Shown here: positions 1-52,717 of the stretch, piece after piece
How positions within the stretch are numbered: position 1 is the first letter of the stretch
How the letters are laid out: every line of letters starts with the position of its first letter
Assembly (NCBI GenBank): GCA_965246975.1
Contig: OZ251996.1
Location: 473,102-537,101 of the forward strand
From: Phototrophicaceae bacterium
GTDB lineage: Bacteria; Chloroflexota; Anaerolineae; Aggregatilineales; Phototrophicaceae
DNA length: 64,000 nt
Direction: 5' to 3'
Notes under the pieces: generated by a model
The model's input: only the letters and a program-made list of their open reading frames with translations
The model's database searches: none
Told to the model about the DNA's origin: nothing
Made by a program: the position numbers and the translations under genes

Positions 1-2
1 GC

Positions 3-881
3 AGCACACAGCTCAACTCGCTGCTGGCCGGTGAAACCCAGATCGCCGATACCATTCTCGCCAGTGACAAGGAGAAGGCGGACGAGGCGGAAGGATTCTT
101 TATTACTGAGGATCCTGGGCTGTTCACCAACACCCTCAAGATCAATACCCAGGGCGAATACACCAGCGACCTCAACGTACGCAAGGCCATCGCCCATGTG
201 ATGAACTATCCCGCCCTGCCGCAAGTGCAGGACGTGAAGGTGACGTTGCTGCCTGGACCCACGCCGGCCAACTTCCCCGGCTTCGTCCCGGACCTCGACA
301 TTCCGGACTACAACATCGAAACGGCGCGAGAATATCTGGCGCAGTCTCCATGGCCGGATGGCGGTTTTGAGCTGGACTACGTGTATGTAACCGATTTTGT
401 TCGGGAGGAAATCCCGGGGCTACTGCTGCTGGAAGGCCTGAGTGAACTGAACATCACGCTCAACATGGTGCCCACGCTCTGGCCGGACATGGTCGCTTCC
501 TGTGGCGATCCTGCCACCGGGCCTGACCTCATCAACATCTATACACTGCCGCCATTCTCGGACCCGCACGCCCATCTCTACAACCAGTACAACTCCAGCC
601 AGTGGACGAGTGGCGCAGGTAGCTTCCAGTCCTGCAGCTTCTACCAGAACGAGCGTGTGGACGAATTGCTCAACCAGGCTCGCTCACTGGGCGACCAGGA
701 TCAGCGCATGGAACTTTACGCCGAGGCCCAGACCCTGATCGCTGCTGACCAGCCAGCCATCTGGATGTACACAGAAGACAGCCTCATGGCCTTCAACGAC
801 TGCATCAAGGGCTACGTGTTCTCGCCCTTCTATCCCATCACCGTGCTCTTCCAGGACCTGTGGATGGACAATTGCGGCTGA
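3..881 (+). CDS. ABC transporter substrate-binding protein, peptide/nickel/opine type (family-5 SBP); C-terminal part, 5' end lies outside the window
   Basis: Frame 3 is open from base 3 to the TGA at 879-881; the listed ORF 198..881 only starts at an internal Met. The C-terminal sequence is DppA/OppA-like (ELYAEAQTLIAADQPAIWMY). It is followed by two DppB/C-like permeases and two DppD/F-like ATPases. Confidence 0.75.
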   Translation, partial: STQLNSLLAGETQIADTILASDKEKADEAEGFFITEDPGLFTNTLKINTQGEYTSDLNVRKAIAHVMNYPALPQVQDVKVTLLPGPTPANFPGFVPDLDIPDYNIETAREYLAQSPWPDGGFELDYVYVTDFVREEIPGLLLLEGLSELNITLNMVPTLWPDMVASCGDPATGPDLINIYTLPPFSDPHAHLYNQYNSSQWTSGAGSFQSCSFYQNERVDELLNQARSLGDQDQRMELYAEAQTLIAADQPAIWMYTEDSLMAFNDCIKGYVFSPFYPITVLFQDLWMDNCG

Positions 882-948
882 TGCTGCGACTGCATAAAAA
901 CGGGTTTGCGGGGCGTTCCCGTTCAAAACGCCCCTGCTGGACTCTTGC

Positions 949-1962
949 ATGACCCTGCGTCTGTATCTGGCTCGGCGCGCCCTGATGGTCGTGCCATTGC
1001 TGCTGGGGCTAAGTATCTTGACCTTCACCATCTCGCGGCTGGTGCCCGGCGACCCGGTCGGGCTTGCGGCCGGGCCACAGGCGACAGTTGAGATCCGCGA
1101 GGCGCTGCGTAAGCAGTTCGGCCTTGACCAGCCATTGCCCGTGCAATACGCGACCTACATCACTGGCATCTTGCGTGGCGATTGGGGCCAGTCGCTCTAT
1201 ACCCGTCGCGGCGTTATAGATTCGTTACGGGTCTACTTTCCGGCCACGCTGGAATTGACGCTGGCCGCCGTCATCCTTGCCACTGGCGTGGGCGTGCCGG
1301 CCGGGGTCATCTCGGCGATGTATCGCAATCGCCTCCCGGACCACATCGCCCGCGTAATTTCACTTTTTTTTGTCAGCTTCCCGGCCTTCTGGCTGGCCAT
1401 GATTATGCAGACCGTGCTTGGGCGCTATGCAGGGCTGGTGCCCATCGGACGCCGTTTTCCGGTCCTCATGGCACCACCGCCAACTGTGACCGGCCTCTAT
1501 CTCGTGGACAGCCTGCTCGCGCTGGACCTGGCGGCCTTTAGCGTCGCGCTCAATCACATTGTGGTGCCGGCGCTCGTACTTTCCTTCGGCGCGCTGGCCA
1601 GCATCACGCGCATCACACGCGCCAGCATGATCGAAATCCTCGAACGCGATTTCGTGCGCTCCGCCCGCGCCATTGGCATTCCCGAGCGCGTCGTCATCGG
1701 CAAGTACGTGCTGCGCAACGCCTTCATCGCCACACTGACCGTCATCTCGCTCAATTTCGGCTGGCTGATGGCTGGCGCCATTCTCATCGAGACAATCTTT
1801 GACTGGCCGGGCATCGGCCTCTACGCCGTGGACGCCTCGCTCAGCCTCGATTTCCAGCCCATTATGGGCATCACCATCGTCTATGGCGTCCTGTTCAGCC
1901 TCGTCAACATCCTGACTGATGTGGCTTACGGCATCCTGGACCCAAGGATCCGTTATGGCTGA
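949..1962 (+). CDS. ABC transporter permease, DppB/OppB-like
   Basis: 337 aa multi-TM protein. N-terminus (RLYLARRALMVVPLLLGLSILTF) and C-terminus (TDVAYGILDPRIRY) are typical of BPD_transp_1 peptide permeases. Confidence 0.85.
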   Translation: MTLRLYLARRALMVVPLLLGLSILTFTISRLVPGDPVGLAAGPQATVEIREALRKQFGLDQPLPVQYATYITGILRGDWGQSLYTRRGVIDSLRVYFPATLELTLAAVILATGVGVPAGVISAMYRNRLPDHIARVISLFFVSFPAFWLAMIMQTVLGRYAGLVPIGRRFPVLMAPPPTVTGLYLVDSLLALDLAAFSVALNHIVVPALVLSFGALASITRITRASMIEILERDFVRSARAIGIPERVVIGKYVLRNAFIATLTVISLNFGWLMAGAILIETIFDWPGIGLYAVDASLSLDFQPIMGITIVYGVLFSLVNILTDVAYGILDPRIRYG

Positions 1963-2863
1963 GTCGACCGGGCAATCTCTGCGCGAACTGCAGGCGGCGG
2001 CGCGCTCCGCGCGCCAGGAAAATCTGCGCCGCAGCCTCTATCGCTTCCGCTCCAACGCCCTCTCCATGATCGGCCTCGCCATCCTGCTATTCATTCTCTT
2101 TATCGCCATCGCAGCGCCCTTGCTGGTGCCCTTCCCGGAAGACTCGAGCGGCGCGACTCACTTTATGGATCGTCTGCTGCCGCCTGGCCCCGAGCACCCC
2201 TTCGGCACGGACAAGGTCGGGCGTGATATTTTCAGTCGCGTGCTGATGGGCACCGGGCTGGCGCTGCAGGTCGGCGTGGTCATCATTGTACTCGCCACCA
2301 CCATCGGCGTCACCGTGGGCGGGGTAGCCGCCTACTTTGGCGGTACCGTCGATGATCTGCTGATGCGCATCACCGACATCTTTCTTACCGTGCCGGCGCT
2401 CGTGCTGGCCATCGCCTTCTCGGCTGCGCTGGGCAAGGGCATCATCAACGCCATGATCGGCATCTCGCTGGTCTGGTGGCCGGGCTTTGCGCGCCTGACG
2501 CGCAGCCTGGTGCTCTCCCTGCGCGAGGAAGCCTTTGTGGAAGCCGCCTATGGCATTGGCGCCAGCCACGGGCGCATTCTGTTTCGGCATATCCTCCCCA
2601 ACGCCGTCTCCCCCATCATCATCAAGATGACCACGGACTTCGGTTTCGCGGTGCTGACTGCCGCCGCGCTCGGCTTTATAGGCATCGGCGCGCAGCCGCC
2701 CACCCCTGAATGGGGCGCGATGATCGAGGACGGGCGTCATTATTTCCCGGACGAATGGTGGGTAGCGACCTTCCCGGGCATGGCCATCTGGCTGCTGGTC
2801 TTCAGCTGGAACCTGCTGGGCGACGGCCTGCGCGACGTCCTTGATCCGCGTGCGCGCCGCTAG
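1955..2863 (+). CDS. ABC transporter permease, DppC/OppC-like
   Basis: The ATG at 1955 overlaps the upstream stop (ATGGCTGA). The C-terminal motif NLLGDGLRDVLDPR is typical of DppC/OppC. The listed ORF start at 1919 is probably an upstream extension. Confidence 0.85.
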   Translation: MAESTGQSLRELQAAARSARQENLRRSLYRFRSNALSMIGLAILLFILFIAIAAPLLVPFPEDSSGATHFMDRLLPPGPEHPFGTDKVGRDIFSRVLMGTGLALQVGVVIIVLATTIGVTVGGVAAYFGGTVDDLLMRITDIFLTVPALVLAIAFSAALGKGIINAMIGISLVWWPGFARLTRSLVLSLREEAFVEAAYGIGASHGRILFRHILPNAVSPIIIKMTTDFGFAVLTAAALGFIGIGAQPPTPEWGAMIEDGRHYFPDEWWVATFPGMAIWLLVFSWNLLGDGLRDVLDPRARR

Positions 2864-2880
2864 GCGGGTGAGAGGATAGC

Positions 2881-3909
2881 ATGAGCGAAGCACTGCTGGA
2901 CATTCAGGACCTGCACCTGGAATTTGACACCTTTGACGGTGTCGCCAAGGTGCTGGCCGGCGTCAACCTGACCATGCAGCGCGGCGACGTGCTGGGCCTG
3001 GTGGGCGAGACCGGTTGTGGCAAGTCCATGACCGCGCTGGCCATTCCACGCCTGATCCGCATGCCACCGGGCCGCATCACGCAGGGCCGAATCATGTTTA
3101 ATGGCGAAGACCTGCTGGAGCGCCCGGCCAGCGCCATGCAGAGCTTTCGGGCGCACCACCTTGGCATGATCTTCCAGGACCCGGCCACCAATCTAAACCC
3201 GCTCTTCACCATCCGTGAACAGCTGATGGACGCAGTCTTCTACCAGCAGACCGATGTTCAGCATGTGCCCGGTCGCTGGCGCGGCTTTCTGCCGTCGGCG
3301 CGCCAGCTAAGGCAAGATGCCCACGCGCGCGCCCTCGAGCTGATGCGTCTGGTCGGCATCCCGGACGGCGAACAACGCATCAGCGACTACCCGCACCAGT
3401 TCAGCGGCGGCATGCGCCAGCGCGTACTGATCGCCATGGCCCTGGCCGGAGAGCCCGACCTGCTAATTGCCGACGAGCCAACAACCGCGCTTGATGTAAC
3501 AATTCAGGCGCAAATATTACGCCTCATCCACTCGCTGGTGCGCCAACTGGGACTCACCGTGCTCCTGATTACGCACAATCTCGGCGTGGTCGCCAACACC
3601 TGCGACAAGGTTGCCGTGATGTATTCCGGTCGCGTCATCGAACAGGCGCCGGTGCGCGAGCTCTTCAGCAAACCAAGCCACCCCTACACGCAGGGGCTGA
3701 TTCGCGCGGTGCCTTCCAGCAATACGCGGCGCGGCGGGTTGCAGGGTATCCCCGGCCTGATCCCCAATCTGATTTCACCGCCACAGGGCTGTCGTTTTCA
3801 TCCCCGCTGCGAGCATGTACTCGCGCATTGCAATAGCCAGGTGCCTGGCCCGGGCCGCATTGGCGCCGACCATCTCGCCTTTTGCCACCTCTATCCGGAG
3901 GGTGGATGA
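2881..3909 (+). CDS. ABC transporter ATP-binding protein, DppD/OppD-like
   Basis: Walker A GETGCGKS, signature FSGGMRQR, Walker [14 protein letters not shown]-terminal oligopeptide-type extension with CRFHPRC. Confidence 0.9.
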
Positions 3910-4883
3910 GCGAGACCCTGCTGGAGCTGCGTAACCTGCGCAAGGACTTTCCGCAGCGGAGCGGCCTCTTCGGTCGTCAGAAACAGGTGTTGCGTGCCGT
4001 CGATGACGTCAGTCTGAGCGTGCCACGGGGCAAGACCCTCGGCCTGGTCGGCGAGTCGGGCTCCGGCAAAACGACCATCGGCAAGTGCATTCTGCGCCTG
4101 GTCGAGCCCACGGCAGGCGAAATCCTGTATGACGGCGAGGACCTGCGTTCGCTAGACGCGCGTCGGCTGCGGGCACGGCGCTCCGACATGCAGATGATCT
4201 ACCAGTCGCCCGCGGACTCGCTGAACGGCCGCATGACCGTCGGCCAGATTATTGGCGAGCCGTTGTGGATTCACGAAAGCATCGGCGCCAGCGCGGCGCG
4301 CGATCGTGTACTGGAGCTGATGCACGTCGTTGGCCTCAAGGAAGAACACTACTTCCGCTATCCGCATGAGTTCAGCGGCGGCCAGCAGCAGCGCATCGGC
4401 ATCGCCCGCGCGTTGGCAGTACGTCCCCGGATGGTCATCCTCGACGAGCCGACTTCCGCGCTCGACGTTTCTGTGCAGGCGCAGATTCTAAATCTGCTAC
4501 AGCAGTTGCAGGACCAGTTCGCCCTGACCTACCTCTTCATCTCCCACGATTTGAGCGTGGTGCGCTACATGTGCGACGAGGTCGCCCTGCTCTATCTCGG
4601 CAAGATCGTCGAGCAGGCGCCTGTCCAAACCATTTTTGAAGACTCGCGCCACCCCTACACCCAGGCGCTCATCTCCGCCATCCCGGAGCCAGAACCGGAT
4701 GAGCAGCGCGAGCAGATCTTGCTTCGGGGTGACCTGAGCGCCGGGCGTCCCGACCAGGGTTGCCCCTTTGCGCCGCGCTGTCATGCGGATACGCTGGCGC
4801 GCTGCGAGACGGTGGAGCCACCGCTGGTCGTGGTGGACACTGCCCACCAGGTCGCCTGCCATCTGCATCCAGGAGTAGCCTGA
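3906..4883 (+). CDS. ABC transporter ATP-binding protein, DppF/OppF-like
   Basis: The ATG at 3906 overlaps the upstream TGA (ATGA). Walker A GESGSGKT, signature FSGGQQQR, Walker B ILDEPTSALD, C-terminal CPFAPRC. Confidence 0.9.
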   Translation: MSETLLELRNLRKDFPQRSGLFGRQKQVLRAVDDVSLSVPRGKTLGLVGESGSGKTTIGKCILRLVEPTAGEILYDGEDLRSLDARRLRARRSDMQMIYQSPADSLNGRMTVGQIIGEPLWIHESIGASAARDRVLELMHVVGLKEEHYFRYPHEFSGGQQQRIGIARALAVRPRMVILDEPTSALDVSVQAQILNLLQQLQDQFALTYLFISHDLSVVRYMCDEVALLYLGKIVEQAPVQTIFEDSRHPYTQALISAIPEPEPDEQREQILLRGDLSAGRPDQGCPFAPRCHADTLARCETVEPPLVVVDTAHQVACHLHPGVA

Positions 4884-5974
4884 TGCTGACTCAGGTAACA
4901 GTTGATGACATTGAGCCCATCGCGATTGGCGCCGGCATCCTGGGCACGGGCGGCGGCGGCAACCCCTACCAGGGGGGACTGCACCTGCGCGCCGTTCTGT
5001 GTGAATACGGGCCGCAGCCCGTCGTCAATCCCTGTGAGCTGCCCGATGATGCTCGCCTGGTCGTGGTCGGCAGCATTGGCGCGCCAACCGTCAGCATTGA
5101 GAAATTGCCCCAGGGCCAGGAAATGTCGCGGGCCATCCGCCATCTGGAGCGCCATGTTGGCCATGCCTTCGACGCGGTGGCCATTGCGGAAATCGGCGGC
5201 GCCAACTCCATGCAACCGCTCATCGCGGGCAGACAGTTGGGTATTCCCACTGTTGATGGCGACGGCATGGGCCGCGCCTTCCCGGAGATGCAGATGTCCT
5301 CTTACCTCTATGAGAGTGATGTGAGCGTCGCGCCCTACGCGATGGTGGATGTCGGCCATCGTCGCATCCTTGTGCCACACACCATCAGCGAAAAGTGGGG
5401 CGAACGCGTGGCGCGCAACATCGCTGTCAGTATGGGCGCGCGCGCAGCCCTGGCCGGTTATGTCATGAGCGGCGCCGAGGTGCGCGCTACTGCCGTGAAG
5501 CATACACTGAGCCTTGCCCACAGTCTCGGCAGTGCCGTGCTGGCCTCCCAGGGCAACGATGTGCCCGCTGTCGTGGCCGAAATGCTGCAGGGTGAAATCA
5601 TATTCCGCGGCAAAATCAGCGATGTCAACCGCCGCATTGTGCGCGGCTTCGCCCGCGGCAACGTGGTCTTCAAGAGCTTCGACGGAGCCGACGAATTGAA
5701 AATCGCGTTCCAGAACGAGTATCTCATTGCCTGGCGTAACGGCGAGGTTTGCGCCACAGTGCCTGACCTGATCTGCATTGTCACTGCCGAGACAGGTGAA
5801 CCGGTTTCAACCGAGATGCTGCGCTATGGAACGCGCGTGGTGGTTATCGCGGTGCCGGCGCCCACCGAACTGCGCACGGCCGCCGCGCTGGAGGTTGTCG
5901 GGCCGCTTGCCTTTGGCTATGACGTCCCATGGCGCCCGCTGCCTGGCGGACGCATTGGGCTGCCCGTTGCCTGA
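4883..5974 (+). CDS. DUF917 family protein, paralog 1
   Basis: The ATG at 4883 overlaps the upstream TGA. Motifs GAGILGTGGGGNPY, GAPTV and DGDGMGRAFPEMQM are shared with the two paralogs downstream. Family recognised from memory as Pfam DUF917 / COG3535. Confidence 0.75.
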   Translation: MLTQVTVDDIEPIAIGAGILGTGGGGNPYQGGLHLRAVLCEYGPQPVVNPCELPDDARLVVVGSIGAPTVSIEKLPQGQEMSRAIRHLERHVGHAFDAVAIAEIGGANSMQPLIAGRQLGIPTVDGDGMGRAFPEMQMSSYLYESDVSVAPYAMVDVGHRRILVPHTISEKWGERVARNIAVSMGARAALAGYVMSGAEVRATAVKHTLSLAHSLGSAVLASQGNDVPAVVAEMLQGEIIFRGKISDVNRRIVRGFARGNVVFKSFDGADELKIAFQNEYLIAWRNGEVCATVPDLICIVTAETGEPVSTEMLRYGTRVVVIAVPAPTELRTAAALEVVGPLAFGYDVPWRPLPGGRIGLPVA

Positions 5975-6002
5975 GGCCTTGCCATGCCATTACCGATGAA
6001 AC

Positions 6003-7568
6003 ATGGATGCGAAAGGAGCAAGTGTGCGCATAGGAATTGACGTCGGGGGTACCAACACAGACGCGGTGCTGATGGACGGCCAGACCGTCATAGGCTCGGC
6101 CAAGACCCCGACTACAGCCAACGTGACCGACGGCATCACCAGCGCCCTCAGGACCCTGTTGCAGCAAAGCGCGCTGGAGGTTAATCAGATCGACGGCGTC
6201 ATGATCGGCACGACACATTTCACCAACGCCGTCGTCGAACGGCTCCACCTCACCCGCACGGCCTGTATCCGTCTCGGCTTGCCGGCCACAGCCTGCCTGC
6301 CACCCATGGTTGACTGGCCGGAGGGGCTGCGTGAGGTCATCGGCGGCCATGTGTATATGGCGCACGGCGGACACGAGTTCGACGGTCGCGAAATCTCCGC
6401 CTTCAAACCGGAGGAAGTTCGCGACATCGCAGCGCAAATCCGTGATAAAGGCATCAACGTCGTCGCCATCTCGTCTGTCTTCTCACCGGTCAATTCCAGT
6501 TTTGAGGAAGACGCCGCCGCCATCGTGCTCGAAGTCATTCCCGACGTGACCATCACGCTCTCCAGTTCCATCGGGCGCATTGGGCTGCTGGAGCGCGAGA
6601 ACGCGGCCATCATGAACGGCTGTCTGCGCAACCTGGCGCAACAGACCATCAATGGCTTCCGCGCAGCGCTGGCCGACATGAACATCAAGGCGCCTTTCTA
6701 CCTCAGCCAGAATGATGGCACCCTGATGGCGGCGGACTTTGCGGCGGACTTTCCGGTGCTCACCTTCGCCTCCGGCCCGACCAACAGCATGCGCGGCGCG
6801 GCCTTCCTCAGCGGCCTGCGCGACGCCATCGTCGTCGACGTGGGCGGCACAACGACCGACATTGGCGTGTTGCGTCACGGCTTTCCGCGCGTGGCAGCGC
6901 TGGCCATCGAGATCGGCGGCGTGCGCACCAACTTCCGCATGCCCGACACCATCTCCTTCGGCCTCGGCGGCGGCAGCCTGATTCAGGCGGAGCCGCTGCA
7001 GGTTGGCCCTCGCAGCGTGGGCTACGAGCTCACCACGCGCGCGCGCGTTTTCGGCGGCGATGAACTGACTGCGACCGACATCGTGGTCGCAGCGGGCCAT
7101 GAGGACATCGGCGCTGCCGGCCGGGTTGCCGAGCTGGACAGCACATTTGTCACGGCGGTCGAGGATCGCATCGAGGAGATGGTCAACGTCTCGGTAGATC
7201 GCATGAAAACCAGCGCGACCGAAGTGCCGGTCATCGTGGTCGGCGGCGGCAGCATCCTCATCCAGCGTAAAATCGCCGGCGCCTCGGAACTGGTACGGCC
7301 CGAGCATTTCCCGGTGGCCAACGCCATCGGCGCAGCCATCGCCCAGGTTGGCGGCGAATGCGACCAGATTTTTTCGCTGGCCGAGATGAGCCGCGATCAG
7401 GCGCTTGAGCAGGCCAGGCAGATGGCTGCCGGCCGCGCAGTCGCTGCCGGCGCTGACGCTGCCAGCGTGGAAATCGTGGAAGTCGAGGAAGTGCCGCTGG
7501 CCTATCTGCCTGGCAACGCGACGCGCATCATGGTCAAGGCCGTCGGCGACCTGGTGGAGGCTGATTGA
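6003..7568 (+). CDS. Hydantoinase/oxoprolinase family protein (HyuA-like ASKHA-fold ATPase)
   Basis: 521 aa. It has ASKHA phosphate-binding motifs GIDVGGTNTDAV near the N-terminus and VVDVGGTTTDIG mid-protein, as in Hydant_A_N/Hydantoinase_A. No HyuB-like partner is present in the window. Confidence 0.8.
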   Translation: MDAKGASVRIGIDVGGTNTDAVLMDGQTVIGSAKTPTTANVTDGITSALRTLLQQSALEVNQIDGVMIGTTHFTNAVVERLHLTRTACIRLGLPATACLPPMVDWPEGLREVIGGHVYMAHGGHEFDGREISAFKPEEVRDIAAQIRDKGINVVAISSVFSPVNSSFEEDAAAIVLEVIPDVTITLSSSIGRIGLLERENAAIMNGCLRNLAQQTINGFRAALADMNIKAPFYLSQNDGTLMAADFAADFPVLTFASGPTNSMRGAAFLSGLRDAIVVDVGGTTTDIGVLRHGFPRVAALAIEIGGVRTNFRMPDTISFGLGGGSLIQAEPLQVGPRSVGYELTTRARVFGGDELTATDIVVAAGHEDIGAAGRVAELDSTFVTAVEDRIEEMVNVSVDRMKTSATEVPVIVVGGGSILIQRKIAGASELVRPEHFPVANAIGAAIAQVGGECDQIFSLAEMSRDQALEQARQMAAGRAVAAGADAASVEIVEVEEVPLAYLPGNATRIMVKAVGDLVEAD

Positions 7569-8650
7569 TGCGCATCATTAACGAGGCTGTCCTGGAGGAC
7601 ATCGCGCTGGGCGCCGCGGTACTGGGCACCGGCGGCGGTGGCGATCCCTACATCGGCAAGTTGATGGCGCGTGAATCGATTCGGCGTTACGGGACAGTCG
7701 AGCTTTACACCCTGGACGAGCTGGAGGCAGAGGACCTGATCGTGCCCACGGCCATGATGGGCGCGCCAACCGTGATGGTCGAGAAGATGCCCAACGGCGA
7801 CGACATCATCAACGCCTTTCACTCCGTGGGCAAGTACATCGGCAAGCCCATTCGCGCCACGATGAGCATCGAGGCCGGCGGCCTGAATTCGGTCGTGCCC
7901 ATCTACGCCGCCGCTCGCCTGCGCCTGCCGATGGTTGATTGCGATGGCATGGGGCGCGCCTTCCCCGAGATTCAGATGGTGACGCACACCCTGCACGGCA
8001 TTTCGGCCACGCCCTTCGCCATGTCGGACGAACGGGGCAACACGGTCATCATGGAGACCATCGACAATCACTGGACGGAGACCTTCGCCCGCAGCGTGAC
8101 AGTAAATATGGGTGCCATGGCCATGATCGCCCTGTATGCCGCCACGGTCGCCGAGCTGCGCGATGCGGCCGTTCCCGGCACCATCAGCCTGGCGCAGCGC
8201 ATCGGGGAGACCATCCGTAACGCCCGTTTGTATGAGGAAGACCCGGTGCGCACAGTGCGCGAAGCGGTCGGCGGCTTCACTATCTTCAGAGGCAAGATTA
8301 GCGATGTGCAGCGCCGCACCGAGGCCGGCTTCGCCAAGGGGGAAGCCTTCATGGCCGGAATCGGGGAATACGACGGTCAGGAGTTGCGGCTAGCCTTCCA
8401 GAACGAACATCTGGCCGCCACTATTGACGGCGAGGTGTGTGTTACCGTGCCGGACCTCATCGCCGTGCTGGACATCGAAACCGGCGAGCCCATCACAACC
8501 GAGGGATTGCGTTACGGCTTTCGCGTGGAGGTGATCGCCTTCCCCTGTACGCCCCGCTGGCGCAGCCCTGACGGCCTGCGGCTGGTCGGCCCGCGGGTGT
8601 TCGGCTACGACGTCGACTATGTTCCGGTCGAGGAGCGATACGGCCAGTGA
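7565..8650 (+). CDS. DUF917 family protein, paralog 2
   Basis: 4-nt overlap with the HyuA-like gene. Motifs GAAVLGTGGGGDPY, GAPTV and DCDGMGRAFPEIQM. Confidence 0.75.
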   Translation: MMRIINEAVLEDIALGAAVLGTGGGGDPYIGKLMARESIRRYGTVELYTLDELEAEDLIVPTAMMGAPTVMVEKMPNGDDIINAFHSVGKYIGKPIRATMSIEAGGLNSVVPIYAAARLRLPMVDCDGMGRAFPEIQMVTHTLHGISATPFAMSDERGNTVIMETIDNHWTETFARSVTVNMGAMAMIALYAATVAELRDAAVPGTISLAQRIGETIRNARLYEEDPVRTVREAVGGFTIFRGKISDVQRRTEAGFAKGEAFMAGIGEYDGQELRLAFQNEHLAATIDGEVCVTVPDLIAVLDIETGEPITTEGLRYGFRVEVIAFPCTPRWRSPDGLRLVGPRVFGYDVDYVPVEERYGQ

Positions 8651-9750
8651 TTCGCAGTATAGGACTTGAAGACACGGAGGCTCTGGCGCTGGGCGCCGGC
8701 ATCCTCGGCACCGGCGGCGGCGGCAACACCTATATCGGCCGGCTGCGCCTCGATCGTCAGCTGCGTTTGAGCGGAGTGCCCAGCCAAATACTGGGCGCAG
8801 ACGATCTGTCGGATGACGCTCTCGTCGTCGGCGTTGGCACCATGGGCGCGCCCACGGTCGGCATTGAGAAAATCGAGTCCGGCACTGAGGTCGCCAGCAC
8901 CGTGCGCGCGCTCGAGTCACACCTGAAGCGCGACTTTGATGCGTTGGTCATCAACGAGATCGGCGGCTCAAATGCACTTGAGCCGCTGGTTTGCGGACTG
9001 CAACTGGGTCTGCCAGTGCTGGACGGGGACGGCATGGGACGCGCCTTCCCGGAGTTGCAAATGGACACCTTTTCCATCGGCGGCATCCCGGCCAGCCCTA
9101 TGGCGTTGGGCGACTGCCATGGCAACATTGCCATTTTCGAACGCCTGGACAGCCCGCTGCAGGCCGAGGAGTGGGCGCGCAACCTGACCATCGAAATGGG
9201 CGGCAGCGCTGCGCTGGTGATGTCAGTGATGACAGGTGCGCAGCTCAAGGCGACGCTGGTGCGCGACACGCTCACACTCGCACTAAGTATGGGGCGCGCC
9301 GTGTTACGCTCGCGAGAGCTCAAGGAGGAGGCGCCCGCCTCAGCCATCGCCGGGCTGGGCAACGGCAACGTGCTCTTCGAAGGCAAAATTGTGGATGTGG
9401 AACGCCGCACCGTACAGGGCTTCGCGCGTGGCCGGGTTCGTCTGCAGGCCTTTGATGATCCGCAGCATCTGCTGGAAATCGTCTTTCAGAATGAAAACCT
9501 TGTTGCCTGGCGCGGGGACGAGGTGCTTTGCAGCGTGCCGGATCTGATCACCATTGTGATGCTTAAGGATGGCACGCCGCTGGGCACCGAGATGTTGCGC
9601 TATGGCCTGCGCGTGGGCGTGATCGCCATGCCGGCGGTGCGTGAGCTAAAAACGCCGGCCGCGCTCGCTGTCGTGGGCCCGGCCGCCTTCGGCTACGAAG
9701 AGGTTTCCTTCCGACCGCTGCCGGGAGACCTGTTGCCGGCAACTTCCTGA
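8647..9750 (+). CDS. DUF917 family protein, paralog 3
   Basis: 4-nt overlap with paralog 2. Motifs GAGILGTGGGGNTY, GAPTV and DGDGMGRAFPELQM. The C-terminal region closely parallels paralog 1 (LRYG.RV.VIA.PA..EL.T.AAL.VVGP.AFGY). Confidence 0.75.
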   Translation: MIRSIGLEDTEALALGAGILGTGGGGNTYIGRLRLDRQLRLSGVPSQILGADDLSDDALVVGVGTMGAPTVGIEKIESGTEVASTVRALESHLKRDFDALVINEIGGSNALEPLVCGLQLGLPVLDGDGMGRAFPELQMDTFSIGGIPASPMALGDCHGNIAIFERLDSPLQAEEWARNLTIEMGGSAALVMSVMTGAQLKATLVRDTLTLALSMGRAVLRSRELKEEAPASAIAGLGNGNVLFEGKIVDVERRTVQGFARGRVRLQAFDDPQHLLEIVFQNENLVAWRGDEVLCSVPDLITIVMLKDGTPLGTEMLRYGLRVGVIAMPAVRELKTPAALAVVGPAAFGYEEVSFRPLPGDLLPATS

Positions 9751-10799
9751 GCTCGCGCGCGTCCCAGCCAGAGCAACACAGCCAGACCGAAAAAAATAAT
9801 CAGGGACAGCAAGACCAGCGAGGCCAGCTTGAACGTCCGGCTCTCGAGGACGAGTGTCAACGTACCAAAGCAGGTGCAGAAGAGATAGTAGCCCAGCACG
9901 ATCTGGCGTTGACTGTAACCCAGGTCCAGCAAGCGGTGATGCGCGTGGCCCCGGTCGCCGCGGAAGGGGCTGCGCCCGGCCAGCGCGCGATTAATCATCT
10001 GCCAGATGGCATCCAGGATTGGCAAGGCCATGACCATCAACACCGTCGCCATCTTCGCGCCGCCGATGATGCTCAGGCAGGCGATAAGAAATCCCAGCAG
10101 GTAGGCGCCGCTGCCGGCGAAAATACGCGCCGGGTAGAAATTGTGGACGAGAAAGCCCAGCGTGGCACCCATCAGCGCCAGAGGCAGCAGGCTCACACTC
10201 AGCTGTGGCGGTTCCAAGATCAGGGCGCTGTTGAGAAACAGGACGCTGGCCGCGATGAACACCACCCCGTGGGACAAGCCGTCCAGGCCATCCAGAAAGT
10301 TGACCGTGTTGGTCATGCCAACGATCCACAGCAGAGTCAGCGCAAAGGTAACCGCGAAGGGCCAGGCGGGCGTCTGTGTGCCGGTCAGGGGATTGTTAAA
10401 GCTCTCGATGAAGATTTGGTGATGAATGGCGATACCGGCCGCCAGAAACTGGGCAAGAAACCACCAGTGTGGCTTCAGCTCACGCCAGTCATCCAGCAGG
10501 CCTGCGATGAAAATAACCAGGGCGCCTAGCATCAGCCCGGTGAGACGCAACGGCTCTTCCGGATCGAAGCGAGGCACATACAGCAGCTGCGCCAGAATTA
10601 CGCTGGTCGTGAAGCTGAGGAAGAGCACGCCACCGCCCAGGCGCGATAGCTGACGTTGGTCGCCTTCGTGACGGCGTCGCGCTGACATCTGCGTAACGAT
10701 GCCGAGGCGCTTCCCCAGCCAGATCATCGCCGGGCTGGCCACTATTGCGAGCGCCAGCGCCAGGAAGAAAGTGATGACAAAGGCGGCAGCTACATTCAA
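9693..10799 (-). CDS. Polyprenyl-phosphate glycosyl-1-phosphate transferase, MraY/WecA family (GT4)
   Basis: 368 aa polytopic membrane protein. Motifs GLLDDW, NFLDGLDGL and VHNFYPARIFAGSGAY are typical of WecA/MraY. The start is TTG at 10799 without a clear RBS, so the start is uncertain. Confidence 0.75.
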   Translation of the reverse strand: MNVAAAFVITFFLALALAIVASPAMIWLGKRLGIVTQMSARRRHEGDQRQLSRLGGGVLFLSFTTSVILAQLLYVPRFDPEEPLRLTGLMLGALVIFIAGLLDDWRELKPHWWFLAQFLAAGIAIHHQIFIESFNNPLTGTQTPAWPFAVTFALTLLWIVGMTNTVNFLDGLDGLSHGVVFIAASVLFLNSALILEPPQLSVSLLPLALMGATLGFLVHNFYPARIFAGSGAYLLGFLIACLSIIGGAKMATVLMVMALPILDAIWQMINRALAGRSPFRGDRGHAHHRLLDLGYSQRQIVLGYYLFCTCFGTLTLVLESRTFKLASLVLLSLIIFFGLAVLLWLGRARAQEVAGNRSPGSGRKETSS

Positions 10800-10828
10800 G
10801 GGAGTTCACCCGCCCACGGGTGACAGGC

Positions 10829-12280
10829 TCATGCCTTGTAGGAACCGGCAGTGACATCGCCGCCAGAGCCAGTCCAGTTCGTGTGAAAGAACTCGCCACG
10901 AGGCCGGTCAACCCGCTCATAGGTATGGGCGCCAAAGTAATCGCGCTGCGCCTGCAAGAGGTTTGCTGGCAGGCGCTCATGCCGAAATCCGTCAAAAAAG
11001 GACAGTGCGCTCGACATGGCGGGCACCGGGATCCCCGCCAGCGAGGCCCAGGCGACCACGCGACGCCAGCCGCTCTGGGCGTTCTCAATCTGCTCCCGGA
11101 AGTAGTCGTCCAGCAGCAGGTTGCCCAACTGTGGATTGTTGTTCCAGGCGGCGGTGATGTGATCCAGAAAGCCCGAGCGGATGATGCAGCCCTCGCGCCA
11201 CATTTGGGCGATGCTGCCGTGGTTCAGTTCCCAGCCCAGGGCCTCGTCAACTGCATGCAGCAGCATGTAGCCCTGGGAATAGGAGATGATCTTCGAAGCG
11301 TAGAGAGCCTGCTCTACATCTTCCAGCAGCAGGCTGGCCGCATCCGGGGTCACGCCTGGACCGGAGAGCACGGTAGATGCACGCCGACGTTCATCCTTGA
11401 GGGCTGACAGAAAGCGGGCGAAAACTGCCTCGCTGATGAGCGTGAGCGGCGTACCATGTTCGAGCGATGCGTCCGCCACCCACCTGCCAGTGCCCTTCTG
11501 GCCGGCAGTATCCAGGATTTTTTCGACCAGGGGATCGCCAGCTTCATCACGAAACGCAAGAATGTCGCCGGTGATCTCGATCAGGTAGGAATCGAGCGGG
11601 CCATCGTTCCAACGGCGAAAGGCCGCGCTCATCTGCTCATGATCCATGCCGAGGCCAGATTGCAGCAAGTGAAAGGCCTCGCTGATAAGTTGCATGTCGC
11701 CGTATTCGATACCGTTGTGCACCATCTTTACGAAGTGTCCGGCGCCATCGCGGCCAAGCCAGTCGCAACAGGGCGTGCCATCCGCCACCTTCGCCGCGAT
11801 GGACTGGAAGATTGGTTTGAGGTGTGGCCAGGCGGCCGGCGACCCGCCGGGCATGATTGAAGGGCCGAAGCGGGCGCCCTCCTCGCCGCCAGAAACGCCG
11901 ACTCCGGCGTAGAGGAAGCCCTGCGCCTCCAGCTCCTGCGCCCGCCGGCGCGAATCCTCGTAGTTGGAATTGCCGCCGTCGATAACGATGTCGCCTGGCT
12001 CCAGGTGCGGCAGAAGCTGCTCAATCACGACATCCACCGCGCGGCCCGCCTGCACCATCAGCATCACCCTGCGCGGCCGCCTCAGGGCGGCGCAAAGATC
12101 TGCCATCGTATAGGTACCAATGATGTCGCGGCCCTTCGCCTCACCCTCGACGAACCGCGTGACCTTTTCCGTGGTGCGATTGTAGACCGCGACCGAGAAG
12201 CCGTGGTCGTTCATGTTCAGGATCAGGTTCTGGCCCATCACCGCCAGCCCGATAAGACCGATGTCCGCCTTTGCAGTCAT
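10829..12280 (-). CDS. gnd: 6-phosphogluconate dehydrogenase, decarboxylating
   Basis: N-terminal IGLIGLAVMGQNLILNMNDHGF Rossmann motif and full-length Gnd-like sequence. The ATG at 12280 follows GGAGAGGG; the listed start at 12319 is probably an extension. Confidence 0.9.
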   Translation of the reverse strand: MTAKADIGLIGLAVMGQNLILNMNDHGFSVAVYNRTTEKVTRFVEGEAKGRDIIGTYTMADLCAALRRPRRVMLMVQAGRAVDVVIEQLLPHLEPGDIVIDGGNSNYEDSRRRAQELEAQGFLYAGVGVSGGEEGARFGPSIMPGGSPAAWPHLKPIFQSIAAKVADGTPCCDWLGRDGAGHFVKMVHNGIEYGDMQLISEAFHLLQSGLGMDHEQMSAAFRRWNDGPLDSYLIEITGDILAFRDEAGDPLVEKILDTAGQKGTGRWVADASLEHGTPLTLISEAVFARFLSALKDERRRASTVLSGPGVTPDAASLLLEDVEQALYASKIISYSQGYMLLHAVDEALGWELNHGSIAQMWREGCIIRSGFLDHITAAWNNNPQLGNLLLDDYFREQIENAQSGWRRVVAWASLAGIPVPAMSSALSFFDGFRHERLPANLLQAQRDYFGAHTYERVDRPRGEFFHTNWTGSGGDVTAGSYKA

Positions 12281-15815: not shown

Positions 15816-16550
15816 TTAGTAAGTGGCGCGCCCGCCGGAGAGATCGAAGATGCAGCCAGTGTTGAAACTGGCCTCGCGCGACACAATCCAGCAGGCCAGC
15901 GCCGCCACTTCCTCAATGGTGCCAAGGCGCCCCATCGGGATCCTGCTCTCCATGTAGGCCACCATTTCTGGCGCTATGTTCGCTATCATCGGCGTGCGAA
16001 TGACAGCCGGCGCCAGGCCATTGACCGTGATGCCGCTGGTCGCGTACTCCTTGCCCACTCCCTTGATGAGCCCGGTCATACCGGCCTTGGAGGTCGAATA
16101 GCCGACCATGCCTGGATTGCCTTCCTTGCCGCCGATCGAGACCAGATGCAGTATGCGTCCGTAGTTCTGCGGCACCATCGCTGCGATGGCCGCCTTCGTG
16201 GTCAGGAAGGCGCCGCGCAGATTTACGGCCAGCACCCTGTCGAAATCCTCCGCGCTGTAGTCCGCAAGATTAACGCTGGTCGGCCCAGGGATGCCCGCGC
16301 AGTTGACCAGAATGTCCAGGCGTTCATACCGTGAGAGAACCGCTGCCACTCCGCGCTGCACTGACTCTTCGTCACGCACGTCCAGCAGCAGCGATTCCGC
16401 GATGTCCGGCAATTCAGCAGCGTTCACATCACCGACGACGACACGGCCACCCTCGCGAGCGATGCGCCGCGCAATGCCGGCCCCGATGCCGCTGGCGCCG
16501 CCCGTGACCAGCGCGACCTGGCCGCTGAAGCGCTGTTCAGCCATGCTCAC
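15816..16550 (-). CDS. SDR family oxidoreductase (FabG-like)
   Basis: TGGASGIGAG cofactor motif and YSTSKAG catalytic motif; 244 aa. Confidence 0.85.
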   Translation of the reverse strand: MSMAEQRFSGQVALVTGGASGIGAGIARRIAREGGRVVVGDVNAAELPDIAESLLLDVRDEESVQRGVAAVLSRYERLDILVNCAGIPGPTSVNLADYSAEDFDRVLAVNLRGAFLTTKAAIAAMVPQNYGRILHLVSIGGKEGNPGMVGYSTSKAGMTGLIKGVGKEYATSGITVNGLAPAVIRTPMIANIAPEMVAYMESRIPMGRLGTIEEVAALACWIVSREASFNTGCIFDLSGGRATY

Positions 16551-28531: not shown

Positions 28532-28544
28532 AAGGACAGGTGCC

Positions 28545-34412: not shown

Positions 34413-34444
34413 GCTGCTTCTTTCCACATCATCATCAAGGGAAG

Positions 34445-34498
34445 TCGTCCCTCCTCCTTGCGGAAGAGGGACGAATCCATTGCGAATCCAAAGATTCG
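34445..34498 (-). promoter_or_regulatory. Two intercistronic stem-loops between the SBP and ATPase genes
   Basis: On the - strand: CGAATC-TTTG-GATTCG (34483-34498), then TCGTCCCTC-12 nt-GAGGGACGA (34445-34474). Neither is followed by a U tract. Confidence 0.6.
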
Positions 34499-34501
34499 GT
34501 C

Positions 34502-35485: not shown

Positions 35486-35544
35486 TTCATTCCTCCTGAT
35501 TGTCACGATTACAGTCGCCGGCCAGTGCCGACGGAATAACCAAC

Positions 35545-36507: not shown

Positions 36508-36509
36508 CG

Positions 36510-38873: not shown

Positions 38874-38894
38874 GTTTGTCATGGAGAGCAGACA

Positions 38895-52699: not shown

Positions 52700-52717
52700 T
52701 CTTGTGACTCCAGTCTG

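What the first reader, a model, noticed from the sequence alone, without database searches (positions are those of the whole stretch)
4883..9750. One HyuA-like ATPase bracketed by three tandem DUF917 paralogs, coupled to a Dpp-type importer and lacking HyuB
Seen in sequence:
- The order is DUF917 - HyuA-like - DUF917 - DUF917. Three of the four junctions in this stretch (ATPase/DUF917-1, HyuA/DUF917-2, DUF917-2/DUF917-3) overlap by 1-4 nt, and it directly follows a five-gene peptide/opine-type ABC importer on the same strand.
- The three paralogs share GTGGGG(N/D)xY, MGAPTV and D(G/C)DGMGRAFPE(M/I/L)QM. They are clearly diverged; paralogs 1 and 3 are the closest to each other.
- The HyuA-like protein keeps both ASKHA phosphate motifs.
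- No HyuB-like gene is present in the window.

Established: ATP-dependent hydantoinase, oxoprolinase, caprolactamase and acetone-carboxylase systems use HyuA together with HyuB. DUF917 (COG3535) is known mainly as a conserved neighbour of HyuA-like genes, and most members are uncharacterised. I have an unverified recollection that one member was linked to a thiohydantoin-desulfurase activity.

Inference: this may be a hetero-oligomeric ATP-dependent enzyme in which DUF917 subunits replace HyuB. It would act on a small cyclic amide or peptide-like compound taken up by the adjacent transporter.
Basis: partly seen in the sequence, partly recalled or inferred. Interest (0 to 1): 0.7.

Follow-up and report, generated by a model that had tools for sequence, protein, structure and literature searches.

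The report
HyuA-like ATPase with DUF917 partners
A peptide-type importer operon carries a short hydantoinase-A-like ATPase and three DUF917 genes; it is one lineage's version of a widespread module with one ATPase and two DUF917 types, fused in eukaryotes, of untested function.

Summary
Window 4883..9750 encodes DUF917 (D1), a short HyuA-like ATPase, DUF917 (D2) and DUF917 (D3). The genes are translationally coupled and sit behind a five-gene family-5 ABC importer. No HyuB gene occurs in the 64 kb window or within 10 kb of the short HyuA gene in near-identical relatives.

The three DUF917 genes are position-specific orthogroups. D2 is the "alpha" type, found in nearly every one of 82 related loci. 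D1 and D3 are two copies of a "beta" type (alpha|beta split 100/100 NJ bootstraps). The conserved core is HyuA-short plus alpha plus beta, usually with the same type of importer. It occurs in Chloroflexota, Deinococcota and Alphaproteobacteria, including Rhizobium and Mesorhizobium plasmids. The 1+3 layout is a clade-specific duplication of beta.

In eukaryotes the short HyuA and one DUF917 are fused in one ~1000-aa protein, which argues for a joint enzyme.

DUF917 shows no fold match to HyuB and has no invariant His or Cys in my alignment. The three proteins fall far below the NCBIfam cut-offs for thiohydantoin desulfurases.

Best reading, inferred and not shown: an ATP-dependent ring-opening hydrolase for an imported cyclic amide. 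It is a known unknown rather than a new discovery, but a good target for experiments.

The parts
3..881 (+). 3' part of the family-5 solute-binding protein gene (SBP_bac_5), cut by the left edge of the window
   Evidence: The frame-3 translation runs open to a stop at 881. The ortholog in L001 is a complete 531-aa SBP_bac_5 protein. It has no NCBIfam equivalog; the best hits (GsiB, NikA, Opp, Dpp) are far below cut-off.
949..1962 (+). ABC permease 1 (DppB/OppB type)
   Evidence: Pfam BPD_transp_1 5.5e-39 and BPD_transp_1_N.
1919..2863 (+). ABC permease 2 (DppC/OppC type). The real start is probably ATG 1955, as in the 302-aa call in L001.
   Evidence: Pfam BPD_transp_1 5.6e-37 and OppC_N; L001 gene call; junction sequence.
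2881..3909 (+). ABC ATPase 1 (DppD type)
   Evidence: Pfam ABC_tran and oligo_HPY.
3906..4883 (+). ABC ATPase 2 (DppF type). ATG 3906 has GGAGG upstream and overlaps ATPase 1 by 4 nt. The longest ORF starts at 3882.
   Evidence: Pfam ABC_tran and oligo_HPY; 325-aa call in L001; junction sequence.
4883..5974 (+). DUF917 paralog D1: beta-type, orthogroup beta1, always upstream of the ATPase gene
   Evidence: Pfam S-Me-THD_N 3.9e-51 and S-Me-THD_C 5.1e-63. NCBIfam desulfurase models give 110 and 92 bits against cut-offs of 450 and 440. Clustering and position; NJ bootstrap.
6024..7568 (+). Short HyuA-like ASKHA ATPase (514 aa from GTG 6024; 521 aa from ATG 6003). It lacks the Hydant_A_C domain.
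   Evidence: Pfam Hydant_A_N 8.1e-40 and Hydantoinase_A 3.2e-30. PDB sequence hits to N-methylhydantoinase, oxoprolinase/caprolactamase and acetone/acetophenone carboxylase subunits. 25% identity to a canonical 685-aa HyuA over the first ~360 residues. Phosphate motifs invariant.
7568..8650 (+). DUF917 paralog D2: alpha-type, the near-universal partner of the short HyuA
   Evidence: Pfam S-Me-THD_N 9.6e-60 and S-Me-THD_C 6e-71. Its cluster c1 has 82 members, about one per locus. AF2 model pLDDT 82.7 and pTM 0.85. The only fold match is 2o3i.
8647..9750 (+). DUF917 paralog D3: beta-type, orthogroup beta2, always the last gene. Its 3' end overlaps the convergent GT4 gene (9693..10799, minus strand) by 58 nt.
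   Evidence: Pfam S-Me-THD_N 3.3e-53 and S-Me-THD_C 6.3e-61. Clustering. GT4 gene.

Best explanation
The stretch is the catabolic end of one operon. A family-5 (peptide/opine-type) ABC importer brings in a small molecule. A multi-subunit enzyme made of a short HyuA-like ATPase and DUF917 proteins then processes it.

Shown by the data:
- The ATPase gene is adjacent to a DUF917 gene in all 82 related loci.
- The DUF917 genes fall into two ancient types, alpha (D2) and beta (D1, D3).
- The core set is ATPase + alpha + beta.
- Eukaryotes encode the ATPase and one DUF917 as a single fused polypeptide.
- No HyuB gene is present nearby.

Inferred mechanism:
1. As in oxoprolinase, N-methylhydantoinase and caprolactamase, the ASKHA ATPase spends ATP to activate a stable cyclic amide or ureide as an O-phospho-lactim.
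2. The DUF917 subunits, probably an alpha/beta heterodimer, carry out the hydrolytic step on that activated sp2 carbon.
3. This is chemically parallel to what stand-alone DUF917 enzymes do when they displace sulfide or methanethiol from C2 of (S-methyl)thiohydantoins.

In this lineage the two beta copies would give two isoforms (alpha/beta1 and alpha/beta2), perhaps widening the substrate range.

The substrate is unknown. A peptide-like cyclic amide fits the importer and the absence of any downstream pathway gene. Candidates are a diketopiperazine, a 5-substituted hydantoin, a pyroglutamyl compound or an opine lactam.
For: Domains and motifs.

Translational coupling and a single operon with the importer.

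Synteny in 82 loci from several phyla:
- Gene orders: H-beta-alpha 41, beta-H-alpha-beta 15, beta-H-alpha 5, H-alpha 5, H-alpha-a2 5, and others.
- An oligo_HPY ATPase is present in 64 of 83 loci (the 82 related loci plus the window) and an SBP_bac_5 gene in 50 of 83.

Alpha|beta split: 100/100 NJ bootstraps. Orthogroups are position-specific.

All three paralogs keep the family-invariant residues, so none looks like a dead copy.

Fusions:
- 56 of the best 150 50%-identity representatives of the short HyuA are 830 aa or longer.
- 9 of 9 tested are Hydant_A_N + Hydantoinase_A + S-Me-THD_N + S-Me-THD_C.
- They come from protists, animals, algae and fungi.

HyuB is absent from the window and from the 10 kb on each side of the short HyuA gene in a 97% relative. 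It is present near only 7-8 of 82 loci, and in the seven complete cases it sits next to a separate full-length HyuA.

Canonical phospho-lactim mechanism and A-B-B-A architecture: PMC8453981.

Family names for the desulfurase chemistry: Pfam and NCBIfam.
Against: - Nothing here tests a complex, ATP hydrolysis or a substrate.
- Going by the family names, and from my own recollection rather than any test here, the characterised DUF917 enzymes work alone and without ATP. The ATPase could therefore have another role.
- DUF917 shows no fold match to HyuB and has no conserved His or Cys metal site. "HyuB replacement" is therefore only functional reasoning.
- A few loci have the ATPase with only one DUF917 type (L021, L022, L040, L044, L062), and eukaryotes fuse only one. 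The alpha/beta heteromer is therefore not obligatory.
- The AF2 model of the ATPase was too poor to use (pLDDT 52.8).
- The binding protein has no informative equivalog.
Confidence: 0.55

Rival explanations
1. The short HyuA-like protein is an ATP-dependent activase or chaperone for the DUF917 enzymes, in the manner of GlmL/MutL or the BcrAD/BadFG activases. It does not phosphorylate the substrate. The DUF917 proteins do all the chemistry on the small molecule.
For: - Weak Pfam and NCBIfam hits of the ATPase to BcrAD_BadFG (5e-8), MutL (1e-7), GlmL and the acyl-CoA dehydratase activase.
- The DUF917 family contains named stand-alone hydrolytic desulfurases.
- The ATPase has lost the Hydant_A_C domain of canonical HyuA.
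Against: - The HyuA domains are by far the best matches (E 1e-40 and 1e-30).
- Signature stretches aligned with canonical HyuA are invariant (SGP..., GGGS).
- There is no sign of a radical or metallocofactor that would need reactivation.
- The weak hits are what any ASKHA fold would give.
Confidence: 0.15
2. The DUF917 paralogs are independent hydrolases for successive steps or for different substrates. They do not form a complex with one another or with the ATPase. Co-location reflects a shared pathway only.
For: - All three keep every family-invariant residue.
- Some loci carry one DUF917 type only.
- DUF917 genes also occur beside canonical HyuA + HyuB and nitroreductase genes.
Against: - Eukaryotic fusions of the ATPase with a DUF917 are widespread.
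- The ATPase is adjacent to a DUF917 in all 82 loci.
- The stop and start codons of the coupled genes overlap by 1-4 nt.
- The ATPase and alpha are both very conserved (about 75-80% identity across phyla).
Confidence: 0.15
3. The genes encode (S-methyl)thiohydantoin desulfurases of an ergothioneine-type catabolic pathway.
For: The only named relatives of the three DUF917 proteins are NF058532 and NF058529. The Pfam family is named after S-Me-THD.
Against: - Scores are 66-110 bits against equivalog cut-offs of 440-450.
- No lyase, urocanase-like hydratase or carbamoylase was seen among the window ORFs that were scanned.
- The 41 'H beta alpha' loci (mostly Alphaproteobacteria) show no further conserved catabolic gene; family labels cover only part of the 10-kb flanks.
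Confidence: 0.05
4. The system runs in a synthetic or carboxylating direction: ATP-driven ring closure, or carboxylation as in acetone and acetophenone carboxylases.
For: The HyuA superfamily includes ATP-dependent carboxylases (PMC8453981, PMC5214803).
Against: - The module is consistently linked to importers and to LuxR/MalT-, LacI- and ROK-type regulators, which is typical of catabolic operons.
- No HyuB-type metal subunit is present, and that subunit performs the coupling step in the carboxylases (PMC8453981).
Confidence: 0.05

Closest known systems
ATP-dependent HyuA/HyuB lactamases and hydantoinases (5-oxoprolinase, N-methylhydantoinase, caprolactamase CapAB; PDB 6yra, 7hk5)
   Same: The ASKHA ATPase has Hydant_A_N and Hydantoinase_A domains and both phosphate motifs (DxGGTxTD and DxGGT). 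It is encoded next to a second, non-ATPase subunit. The catabolic context suggests a stable cyclic amide as substrate.
   Different: - There is no HyuB.
- The ATPase is about 170 residues shorter, lacks Hydant_A_C, and is only 25% identical to a canonical HyuA.
- The partner is DUF917, which has an unrelated fold and no His-based metal site.
DUF917 / S-Me-THD family: thiohydantoin desulfurase and S-methyl thiohydantoin desulfurase (NCBIfam NF058529, NF058532); structure 2o3i (CV_3147)
   Same: Both Pfam domains are present at E<1e-50. The family motifs GxGGGG, GAP, E-x-GG, DxDGxGRAxP, QNE and PD are shared with 2o3i. The AF2 model matches 2o3i at TM 0.77.
   Different: - Scores are four- to six-fold below the equivalog cut-offs.
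- These proteins are always encoded with an ATPase, and usually as two paralogous types.
- There is no ergothioneine-pathway context.
Gene clusters with cyclodipeptide-oxidase (CDO)-like genes but no CDPS (Nat Commun 2024, PMC11055893 / bioRxiv 10.1101/2023.09.25.559410)
   Same: That paper reports DUF917 genes, hydantoin-racemase-like genes and dipeptide/oligopeptide ABC transporters as enriched around CDO-like nitroreductases, with Chloroflexota well represented. It states that DUF917 proteins are not experimentally characterised. Some related loci here carry nitroreductase and racemase genes (L022, L023, L025, L028, L031, L083).
   Different: The window has no nitroreductase, CDO or racemase gene. 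Neither do most of the 82 loci.
Firmicute triad of NCS1-type permease, DUF917 and hydantoinase (C. difficile CDR20291_1615-1617; L. rhamnosus WP_005715297-299)
   Same: The ATPase and DUF917 are paired next to an importer. In C. difficile the three genes change expression together.
   Different: The accessions listed show a single DUF917 and a cytosine/NCS1-type permease rather than an ABC system. I did not examine these loci with the tools.

Membership tests
Pfam S-Me-THD / DUF917 (PF06032 + PF20906) | Both domains match above the gathering score (27 bits) | tested here: met
   D1 scores 174/212 bits, D2 202/238 bits and D3 180/206 bits.
Pfam S-Me-THD / DUF917 (PF06032 + PF20906) | Fold of the only solved member (2o3i) | tested here: met
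   The D2 AF2 model (pLDDT 82.7) matches 2o3i_A at Foldseek E 3e-19 and TM 0.77. No other hit has E below 0.4.
Thiohydantoin / S-methyl thiohydantoin desulfurase (NCBIfam NF058529, NF058532 equivalogs) | Whole-protein score at or above the curated cut-off (440 / 450 bits) | tested here: not met
   The three proteins score 66-110 bits.
Thiohydantoin / S-methyl thiohydantoin desulfurase (NCBIfam NF058529, NF058532 equivalogs) | Desulfurase activity on thiohydantoins | not testable with these tools
   This needs an enzyme assay.
ATP-dependent hydantoinase/oxoprolinase/caprolactamase (HyuA + HyuB) | HyuA subunit with Hydant_A_N + Hydantoinase_A + Hydant_A_C | tested here: not met
   The N domain is present. 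The A domain matches only profile positions 1-173 of 291. The C domain is absent. A canonical neighbour, L025:14664-16721, has all three domains.
ATP-dependent hydantoinase/oxoprolinase/caprolactamase (HyuA + HyuB) | ATP phosphate-binding motifs P1 (DxGGTxTD) and P2 (DxGGT) | tested here: met
   DVGGTNTD (residues 6-13) and DVGGTTTD (272-279) are invariant in 48 sequences. Motif definitions are from PMC8453981.
ATP-dependent hydantoinase/oxoprolinase/caprolactamase (HyuA + HyuB) | HyuB (Hydantoinase_B) partner subunit encoded alongside | tested here: not met
   The HyuB HMM gives no hit in the six-frame window at E<=10. There is none within 10 kb of the short HyuA gene in L001.
ATP-dependent hydantoinase/oxoprolinase/caprolactamase (HyuA + HyuB) | ATP-dependent ring opening of a lactam or hydantoin | not testable with these tools
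   This needs biochemistry.
Dpp/Opp-type (family 5) ABC importer | SBP_bac_5 binding protein, two BPD_transp_1 permeases, two ABC_tran + oligo_HPY ATPases | tested here: met
   The binding-protein gene is truncated by the window edge but complete in L001.
CDO-associated clusters | CDO-like nitroreductase (CDOA/CDOB) in the cluster | tested here: not met
   Queries with nitroreductase and racemase sequences from related loci found nothing in the window.

The most novel reading that the evidence does not exclude
The short HyuA plus DUF917 is a third, uncharacterised architecture of ATP-dependent cyclic-amide hydrolase. It is conserved from bacteria (as ATPase + alpha/beta DUF917 heteromer) to animals, algae and fungi (as a single fused protein). 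In it a DUF917 dimer, not HyuB, hydrolyses the phospho-activated ring. One attractive substrate class is the 2,5-diketopiperazines, for which very few degrading enzymes have been described (PMC3852281).
Probability: 0.3. Interest if true: 0.8.

Novelty: new variant of a known kind. Interest (0 to 1): 0.55.

Why it matters
The short-HyuA/DUF917 pair is very widespread. The short HyuA query matched 9591 representatives (one per cluster at 50% identity) at E<=1e-3 and 1015 at E<=1e-30; these totals also take in more distant HyuA-type proteins. The pair occurs on rhizobial megaplasmids and as a fused gene in corals, molluscs, echinoderms, amphioxus, algae and fungi. All database names I saw for it are generic ('hydantoinase', 'hydantoinase/oxoprolinase', 'hydantoin utilization protein A', 'DUF917' or 'uncharacterized').

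Three results give a concrete experimental design for assigning a function to a large family:
- The bacterial module has two distinct DUF917 types.
- It travels with a family-5 ABC importer and a dedicated regulator.
- It lacks HyuB.

The design would be co-expression of three or four subunits, ligand screening of the binding protein, and work in cultured carriers such as Rhizobium, Mesorhizobium and Devosia.

If the ATP-driven mechanism holds, it would add a new partner subunit to the oxoprolinase/hydantoinase/caprolactamase class. Such an enzyme could also serve as a biocatalyst for opening stable lactams.

Tried and rejected
- An exact look-up of the window's HyuA protein found no record. 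Relatives were used instead.
- Literature searches for 'thiohydantoin desulfurase', PF06032, COG3535, S-Me-THD and ergothioneine catabolism returned nothing useful. The ACS Chem Biol paper I recalled is not held. The desulfurase link therefore rests on Pfam and NCBIfam family names only.
- The AF2 model of the HyuA-like protein was poor (pLDDT 52.8). I did not use it for fold search or domain claims.
- Foldseek with the D2 model found only 2o3i. It gave no hint of a relation to HyuB, tubulin/FtsZ or HAD folds, which I had considered because of the GTGGGG and DxDG motifs.
- The promoter and terminator scan of 1..11000 found no more sites than shuffled sequence does.
- NCBIfam gave no substrate clue for the binding protein.
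- Several apparent 'families' in my neighbour census (7, 8 and 17) looked like antisense shadow ORFs of the GC-rich transporter genes, judging by their composition and position. I discarded them without further checking.
- I considered that one paralog might be a degenerate, non-catalytic copy. I rejected this because all family-invariant residues are kept in D1, D2 and D3.
- A multimer prediction was not possible with the tools.

Full report
**1. What is in the sequence**

Window 4883..9750 holds four co-directional genes.
- D1 is 4883..5974, 363 aa.
- The HyuA-like gene is 6003..7568. Its start is more probably GTG 6024, which has an AAGGAG 6 nt upstream and gives 514 aa like its 97%-identical relative.
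- D2 is 7568..8650, 360 aa.
- D3 is 8647..9750, 367 aa.

The junctions are TGATG (second ABC ATPase to D1), TGATG (HyuA to D2) and GTGA (D2 to D3). Each has a Shine-Dalgarno-like purine run upstream. The D1 to HyuA gap is 28 or 49 nt, depending on the start chosen.

Pfam assigns S-Me-THD_N (PF06032, the former DUF917) and S-Me-THD_C (PF20906) to all three paralogs, at E 4e-51 to 6e-71. It assigns Hydant_A_N (8e-40) and the first 173 of 291 positions of Hydantoinase_A (3e-30) to the ATPase. The Hydant_A_C domain is missing. A canonical HyuA from a related locus has it.

The ATPase carries DVGGTNTD and DVGGTTTD. These are the P1 and P2 phosphate motifs defined for caprolactamase CapA (PMC8453981). 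Both are invariant in 48 homologues.

The paralogs are 49.5% (D1-D3), 43.6% (D1-D2) and 38.9% (D2-D3) identical.

**2. Surroundings**

Upstream on the same strand lie two BPD_transp_1 permeases and two ABC_tran + oligo_HPY ATPases. Further upstream is the C-terminal part of an SBP_bac_5 gene, which is cut by the window edge. A 97%-identical relative (L001) shows the complete five-gene importer. Ahead of it are gyrB, a hypothetical gene and a Peptidase_M23 gene.

Downstream, a convergent GT4 glycosyltransferase gene overlaps the end of D3. The operon is therefore SBP-P-P-A-A-D1-H-D2-D3.

I built a HyuB HMM from 10 HyuB ORFs found in related loci. One of them was verified as Hydantoinase_B at 1.8e-167. 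The HMM finds nothing in the six-frame window at E<=10. The window also has no long HyuA, nitroreductase or Asp/Glu-racemase gene.

The rest of the window holds unrelated housekeeping genes and molybdoenzyme genes.

**3. Related loci**

The ATPase belongs to a strongly conserved family: 74-78% identity between Chloroflexota, Trueperaceae and Burkholderiales MAGs. A scan of one genome per species returned 325 relatives, of which 80 loci were kept. The closest, at 96-97%, are Phototrophicaceae MAGs (Chloroflexota).

- Every one of the 82 loci analysed has at least one DUF917 gene next to the ATPase gene.
- Clustering of 178 DUF917 ORFs gives two deep clades of 89 each.
- An NJ analysis of 67 representatives supports the split in 100 of 100 bootstraps.
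- I call the clade with D2 'alpha'. Its main cluster has 82 members, roughly one per locus.
- I call the clade with D1 and D3 'beta'.
- Within beta, D1 and D3 define two orthogroups that keep their positions. Beta1 is always upstream of the ATPase gene (19 other loci). Beta2 is always the last gene (20 other loci).

Gene orders over the 83 loci, window included, are as follows:

| Order | Loci |
|---|---|
| H-beta-alpha | 41, mostly Alphaproteobacteria |
| beta-H-alpha-beta | 15, the window's type (Anaerolineae and relatives) |
| beta-H-alpha | 5 |
| H-alpha | 5 |
| H-alpha-a2 | 5 |
| H-beta | 4 |
| H-alpha-beta | 3 |
| beta-H-alpha-alpha-beta | 2 (a Trueperaceae MAG and an unclassified MAG) |
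| H-alpha-alpha-beta | 2 |
| H-a2-a2 | 1 |

The conserved unit is thus one ATPase plus one alpha plus one beta. '1+3' is a lineage-specific duplication of beta.

All three window paralogs keep every residue that is invariant across the family, so none looks degenerate.

**4. Conserved neighbours**

An oligo_HPY ABC ATPase is present in 64 of 83 loci and an SBP_bac_5 gene in 50 of 83. These are undercounts, because of contig ends and my crude ORF filter. A LuxR/MalT-like regulator of about 810 aa sits upstream in 22 alphaproteobacterial loci.

The same module lies on plasmids of cultured bacteria: Rhizobium leguminosarum and R. johnstonii, Mesorhizobium japonicum MAFF 303099 pMLa, Aureimonas and Shinella. 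It is always annotated only as 'hydantoinase/oxoprolinase family protein' and 'DUF917 domain-containing protein'.

HyuB occurs within 10 kb in only 7-8 of 82 loci. In the seven complete cases it lies beside a separate full-length HyuA (in L059 only an end-of-locus fragment scored). In five of those loci it forms a string of nitroreductase, DUF917 (a2 subtype), HyuA and HyuB.

**5. Fusions**

A full HMMER scan against 1.84 billion cluster representatives gave 9591 hits at E<=1e-3 and 1015 at E<=1e-30 for the ATPase.
- Of the best 150 representatives, 56 are 830 aa or longer.
- All nine that I scanned with Pfam are Hydant_A_N + Hydantoinase_A + S-Me-THD_N + S-Me-THD_C.
- My own HMMs find a C-terminal DUF917 domain in about 60.
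- The fusions are eukaryotic: Ancoracysta, Anaeramoeba and Pelomyxa, then Trichoplax, corals, sea anemones, molluscs, echinoderms, Branchiostoma, brachiopods, green algae and many fungi.
- All are labelled 'uncharacterized protein', 'hydantoinase' or 'DUF917-domain-containing protein'.

This is classical Rosetta-stone evidence that the short HyuA and DUF917 act together.

**6. Relation to known proteins**

*ATPase.* The nearest solved structures are N-methylhydantoinase (7hk5), the caprolactamase entry 6yra, and acetophenone and acetone carboxylase subunits, at E 1e-22 to 4e-9. The best NCBIfam hit, caprolactamase alpha, scores 101 bits against a cut-off of 1000. Identity to a canonical HyuA is 25% over about 360 residues.

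*DUF917.*
- The only solved relative is the structural-genomics entry 2o3i.
- The AF2 model of D2 (pLDDT 82.7, pTM 0.85) matches 2o3i at TM 0.77. Nothing else has E below 0.4. There is therefore no detectable fold relation to HyuB.
- The 51-sequence alignment has no invariant His or Cys. HyuB-type subunits bind their metal through Asp-His-Asp-His (PMC8453981).
- NCBIfam's equivalog models for S-methyl thiohydantoin desulfurase and thiohydantoin desulfurase score 66-110 bits against cut-offs of 450 and 440. The window proteins are family members but not those enzymes.

*Literature.* The only statements I found say that DUF917 proteins are not experimentally characterised. The same paper says they are enriched, with dipeptide ABC transporters and racemases, around CDO-like genes (10.1101/2023.09.25.559410 / PMC11055893). 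Other papers list permease, DUF917 and hydantoinase gene sets in C. difficile and L. rhamnosus.

**7. Most likely mechanism (inference)**

In the HyuA/HyuB enzymes the ASKHA subunit uses ATP to make an activated (phospho-)lactim. The intermediate passes through a tunnel to the partner subunit for hydrolysis, within an A-B-B-A heterotetramer (PMC8453981).

Going by the family names, the characterised DUF917 enzymes hydrolytically displace sulfide or methanethiol from C2 of a (S-methyl)thiohydantoin. That is an addition-elimination at an sp2 carbon that bears a leaving group. A phospho-lactim is the same kind of electrophile.

I therefore propose three steps:
1. The short HyuA activates an imported cyclic amide or ureide.
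2. A DUF917 alpha/beta pair performs the hydrolysis.
3. In this lineage beta1 and beta2 give alternative isoforms.

Beta is the less conserved component. D1 and D3 are about 43% identical to the alphaproteobacterial beta proteins. D2 averages 62% identity to all alpha-type proteins, and the ATPase is about 60% identical to its alphaproteobacterial homologues. This would suit a role for beta in specificity.

In the 41 'H beta alpha' loci (mostly Alphaproteobacteria) the family labels show only a regulator, the importer genes and the three enzyme genes around the module; they cover only part of the 10-kb flanks. The product should then be an ordinary metabolite, such as a dipeptide or an amino-acid derivative. 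A diketopiperazine would fit, and DKP-degrading enzymes are poorly known (PMC3852281). This is a guess.

**8. Rivals**

I considered four rivals: the ATPase as an activase or chaperone, independent DUF917 hydrolases, ergothioneine-type desulfurases, and a synthetic or carboxylating direction. I rank all of them lower, for the reasons given in the rival entries.

**9. Verdict**

However, the feature is one instance of a very widespread, already annotated and functionally uncharacterised gene pair.

The analysis adds five things:
- the alpha/beta paralog structure and its position-specific orthogroups;
- the cross-phylum link to a family-5 ABC importer;
- the systematic absence of HyuB;
- the breadth of the eukaryotic fusions;
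- the lack of any fold or metal-site similarity to HyuB.

The interest is moderate. This is a tractable known unknown that may represent a new architecture within the ATP-dependent lactamase/hydantoinase class.

Noticed in passing
L025:12890-18466; also L023, L028, L031, L082: Directly after the short-HyuA and alpha DUF917 genes, some Chloroflexota/Thermomicrobia, Saprospiraceae and Dormibacterota loci carry a second string. It consists of a nitroreductase, an 'a2' subtype DUF917, a full-length HyuA (685 aa, with Hydant_A_C) and HyuB. DUF917 therefore also co-occurs with the canonical two-subunit enzyme.
   Followed up: partly
L012, L013, L066 (Trueperaceae and relatives), L015 (Ardenticatenia): The alpha gene is also duplicated here. 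Where the upstream flank is present (L012, L013) this gives one ATPase with four DUF917 genes (beta1-H-alpha-alpha'-beta2); L015 has no beta1 and L066 is cut at its 5' end.
   Followed up: partly
L084:10535-11941 (Mesorhizobium japonicum MAFF 303099 pMLa): In the slot of the first DUF917 gene after the ATPase gene, only a 77-aa 'hypothetical protein' is annotated, followed by one intact DUF917 and a transposase. This looks like decay of one paralog.
   Followed up: no
L083 (Rhizobium johnstonii pRlX3): Here the H-DUF917-DUF917 set follows a different four-gene ABC system. An Asp/Glu-racemase-family gene and a divergent 335-aa nitroreductase-family gene lie upstream, and the LuxR-type regulator lies downstream. 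This resembles the CDO-type neighbourhoods described in PMC11055893.
   Followed up: partly
D2 model mcb2dedbbb230, residues ~20-30, 60-80 and 130-190: The AF2 confidence is lowest exactly at the most conserved motifs (GTGGGGD, MGAPTV..EK, DCDGMGRAFPE and the following loops). This may mean that these loops are ordered only in a complex or with a ligand bound.
   Followed up: no
window 9693..9750: The 3' end of D3 overlaps the 3' end of the convergent GT4 (Glycos_transf_4) gene 9693..10799 by 58 nt. No terminator-like site beyond chance was found.
   Followed up: partly
window 19659..22013(-), 23111..29561(+), 37950..41744(+): There are three separate sets of molybdoenzyme genes of the xanthine-dehydrogenase / CO-dehydrogenase family. 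One has CoxD-like AAA, CoxE-like VWA and XdhC accessory genes. They lie near a Bmp/PnrA-type ABC importer (32874..37652, minus strand) and an amidase (16537..18183, minus strand). This may be a heterocycle or purine catabolic neighbourhood. I saw no link to the operon.
   Followed up: no
window 29558..30598(+), 22625..23719(-), 52241..53659(+), 56833..57969(+): These ORFs of 346-472 aa have no Pfam hit at E<=1e-5. Some may be shadow ORFs in this 63% GC sequence.
   Followed up: no
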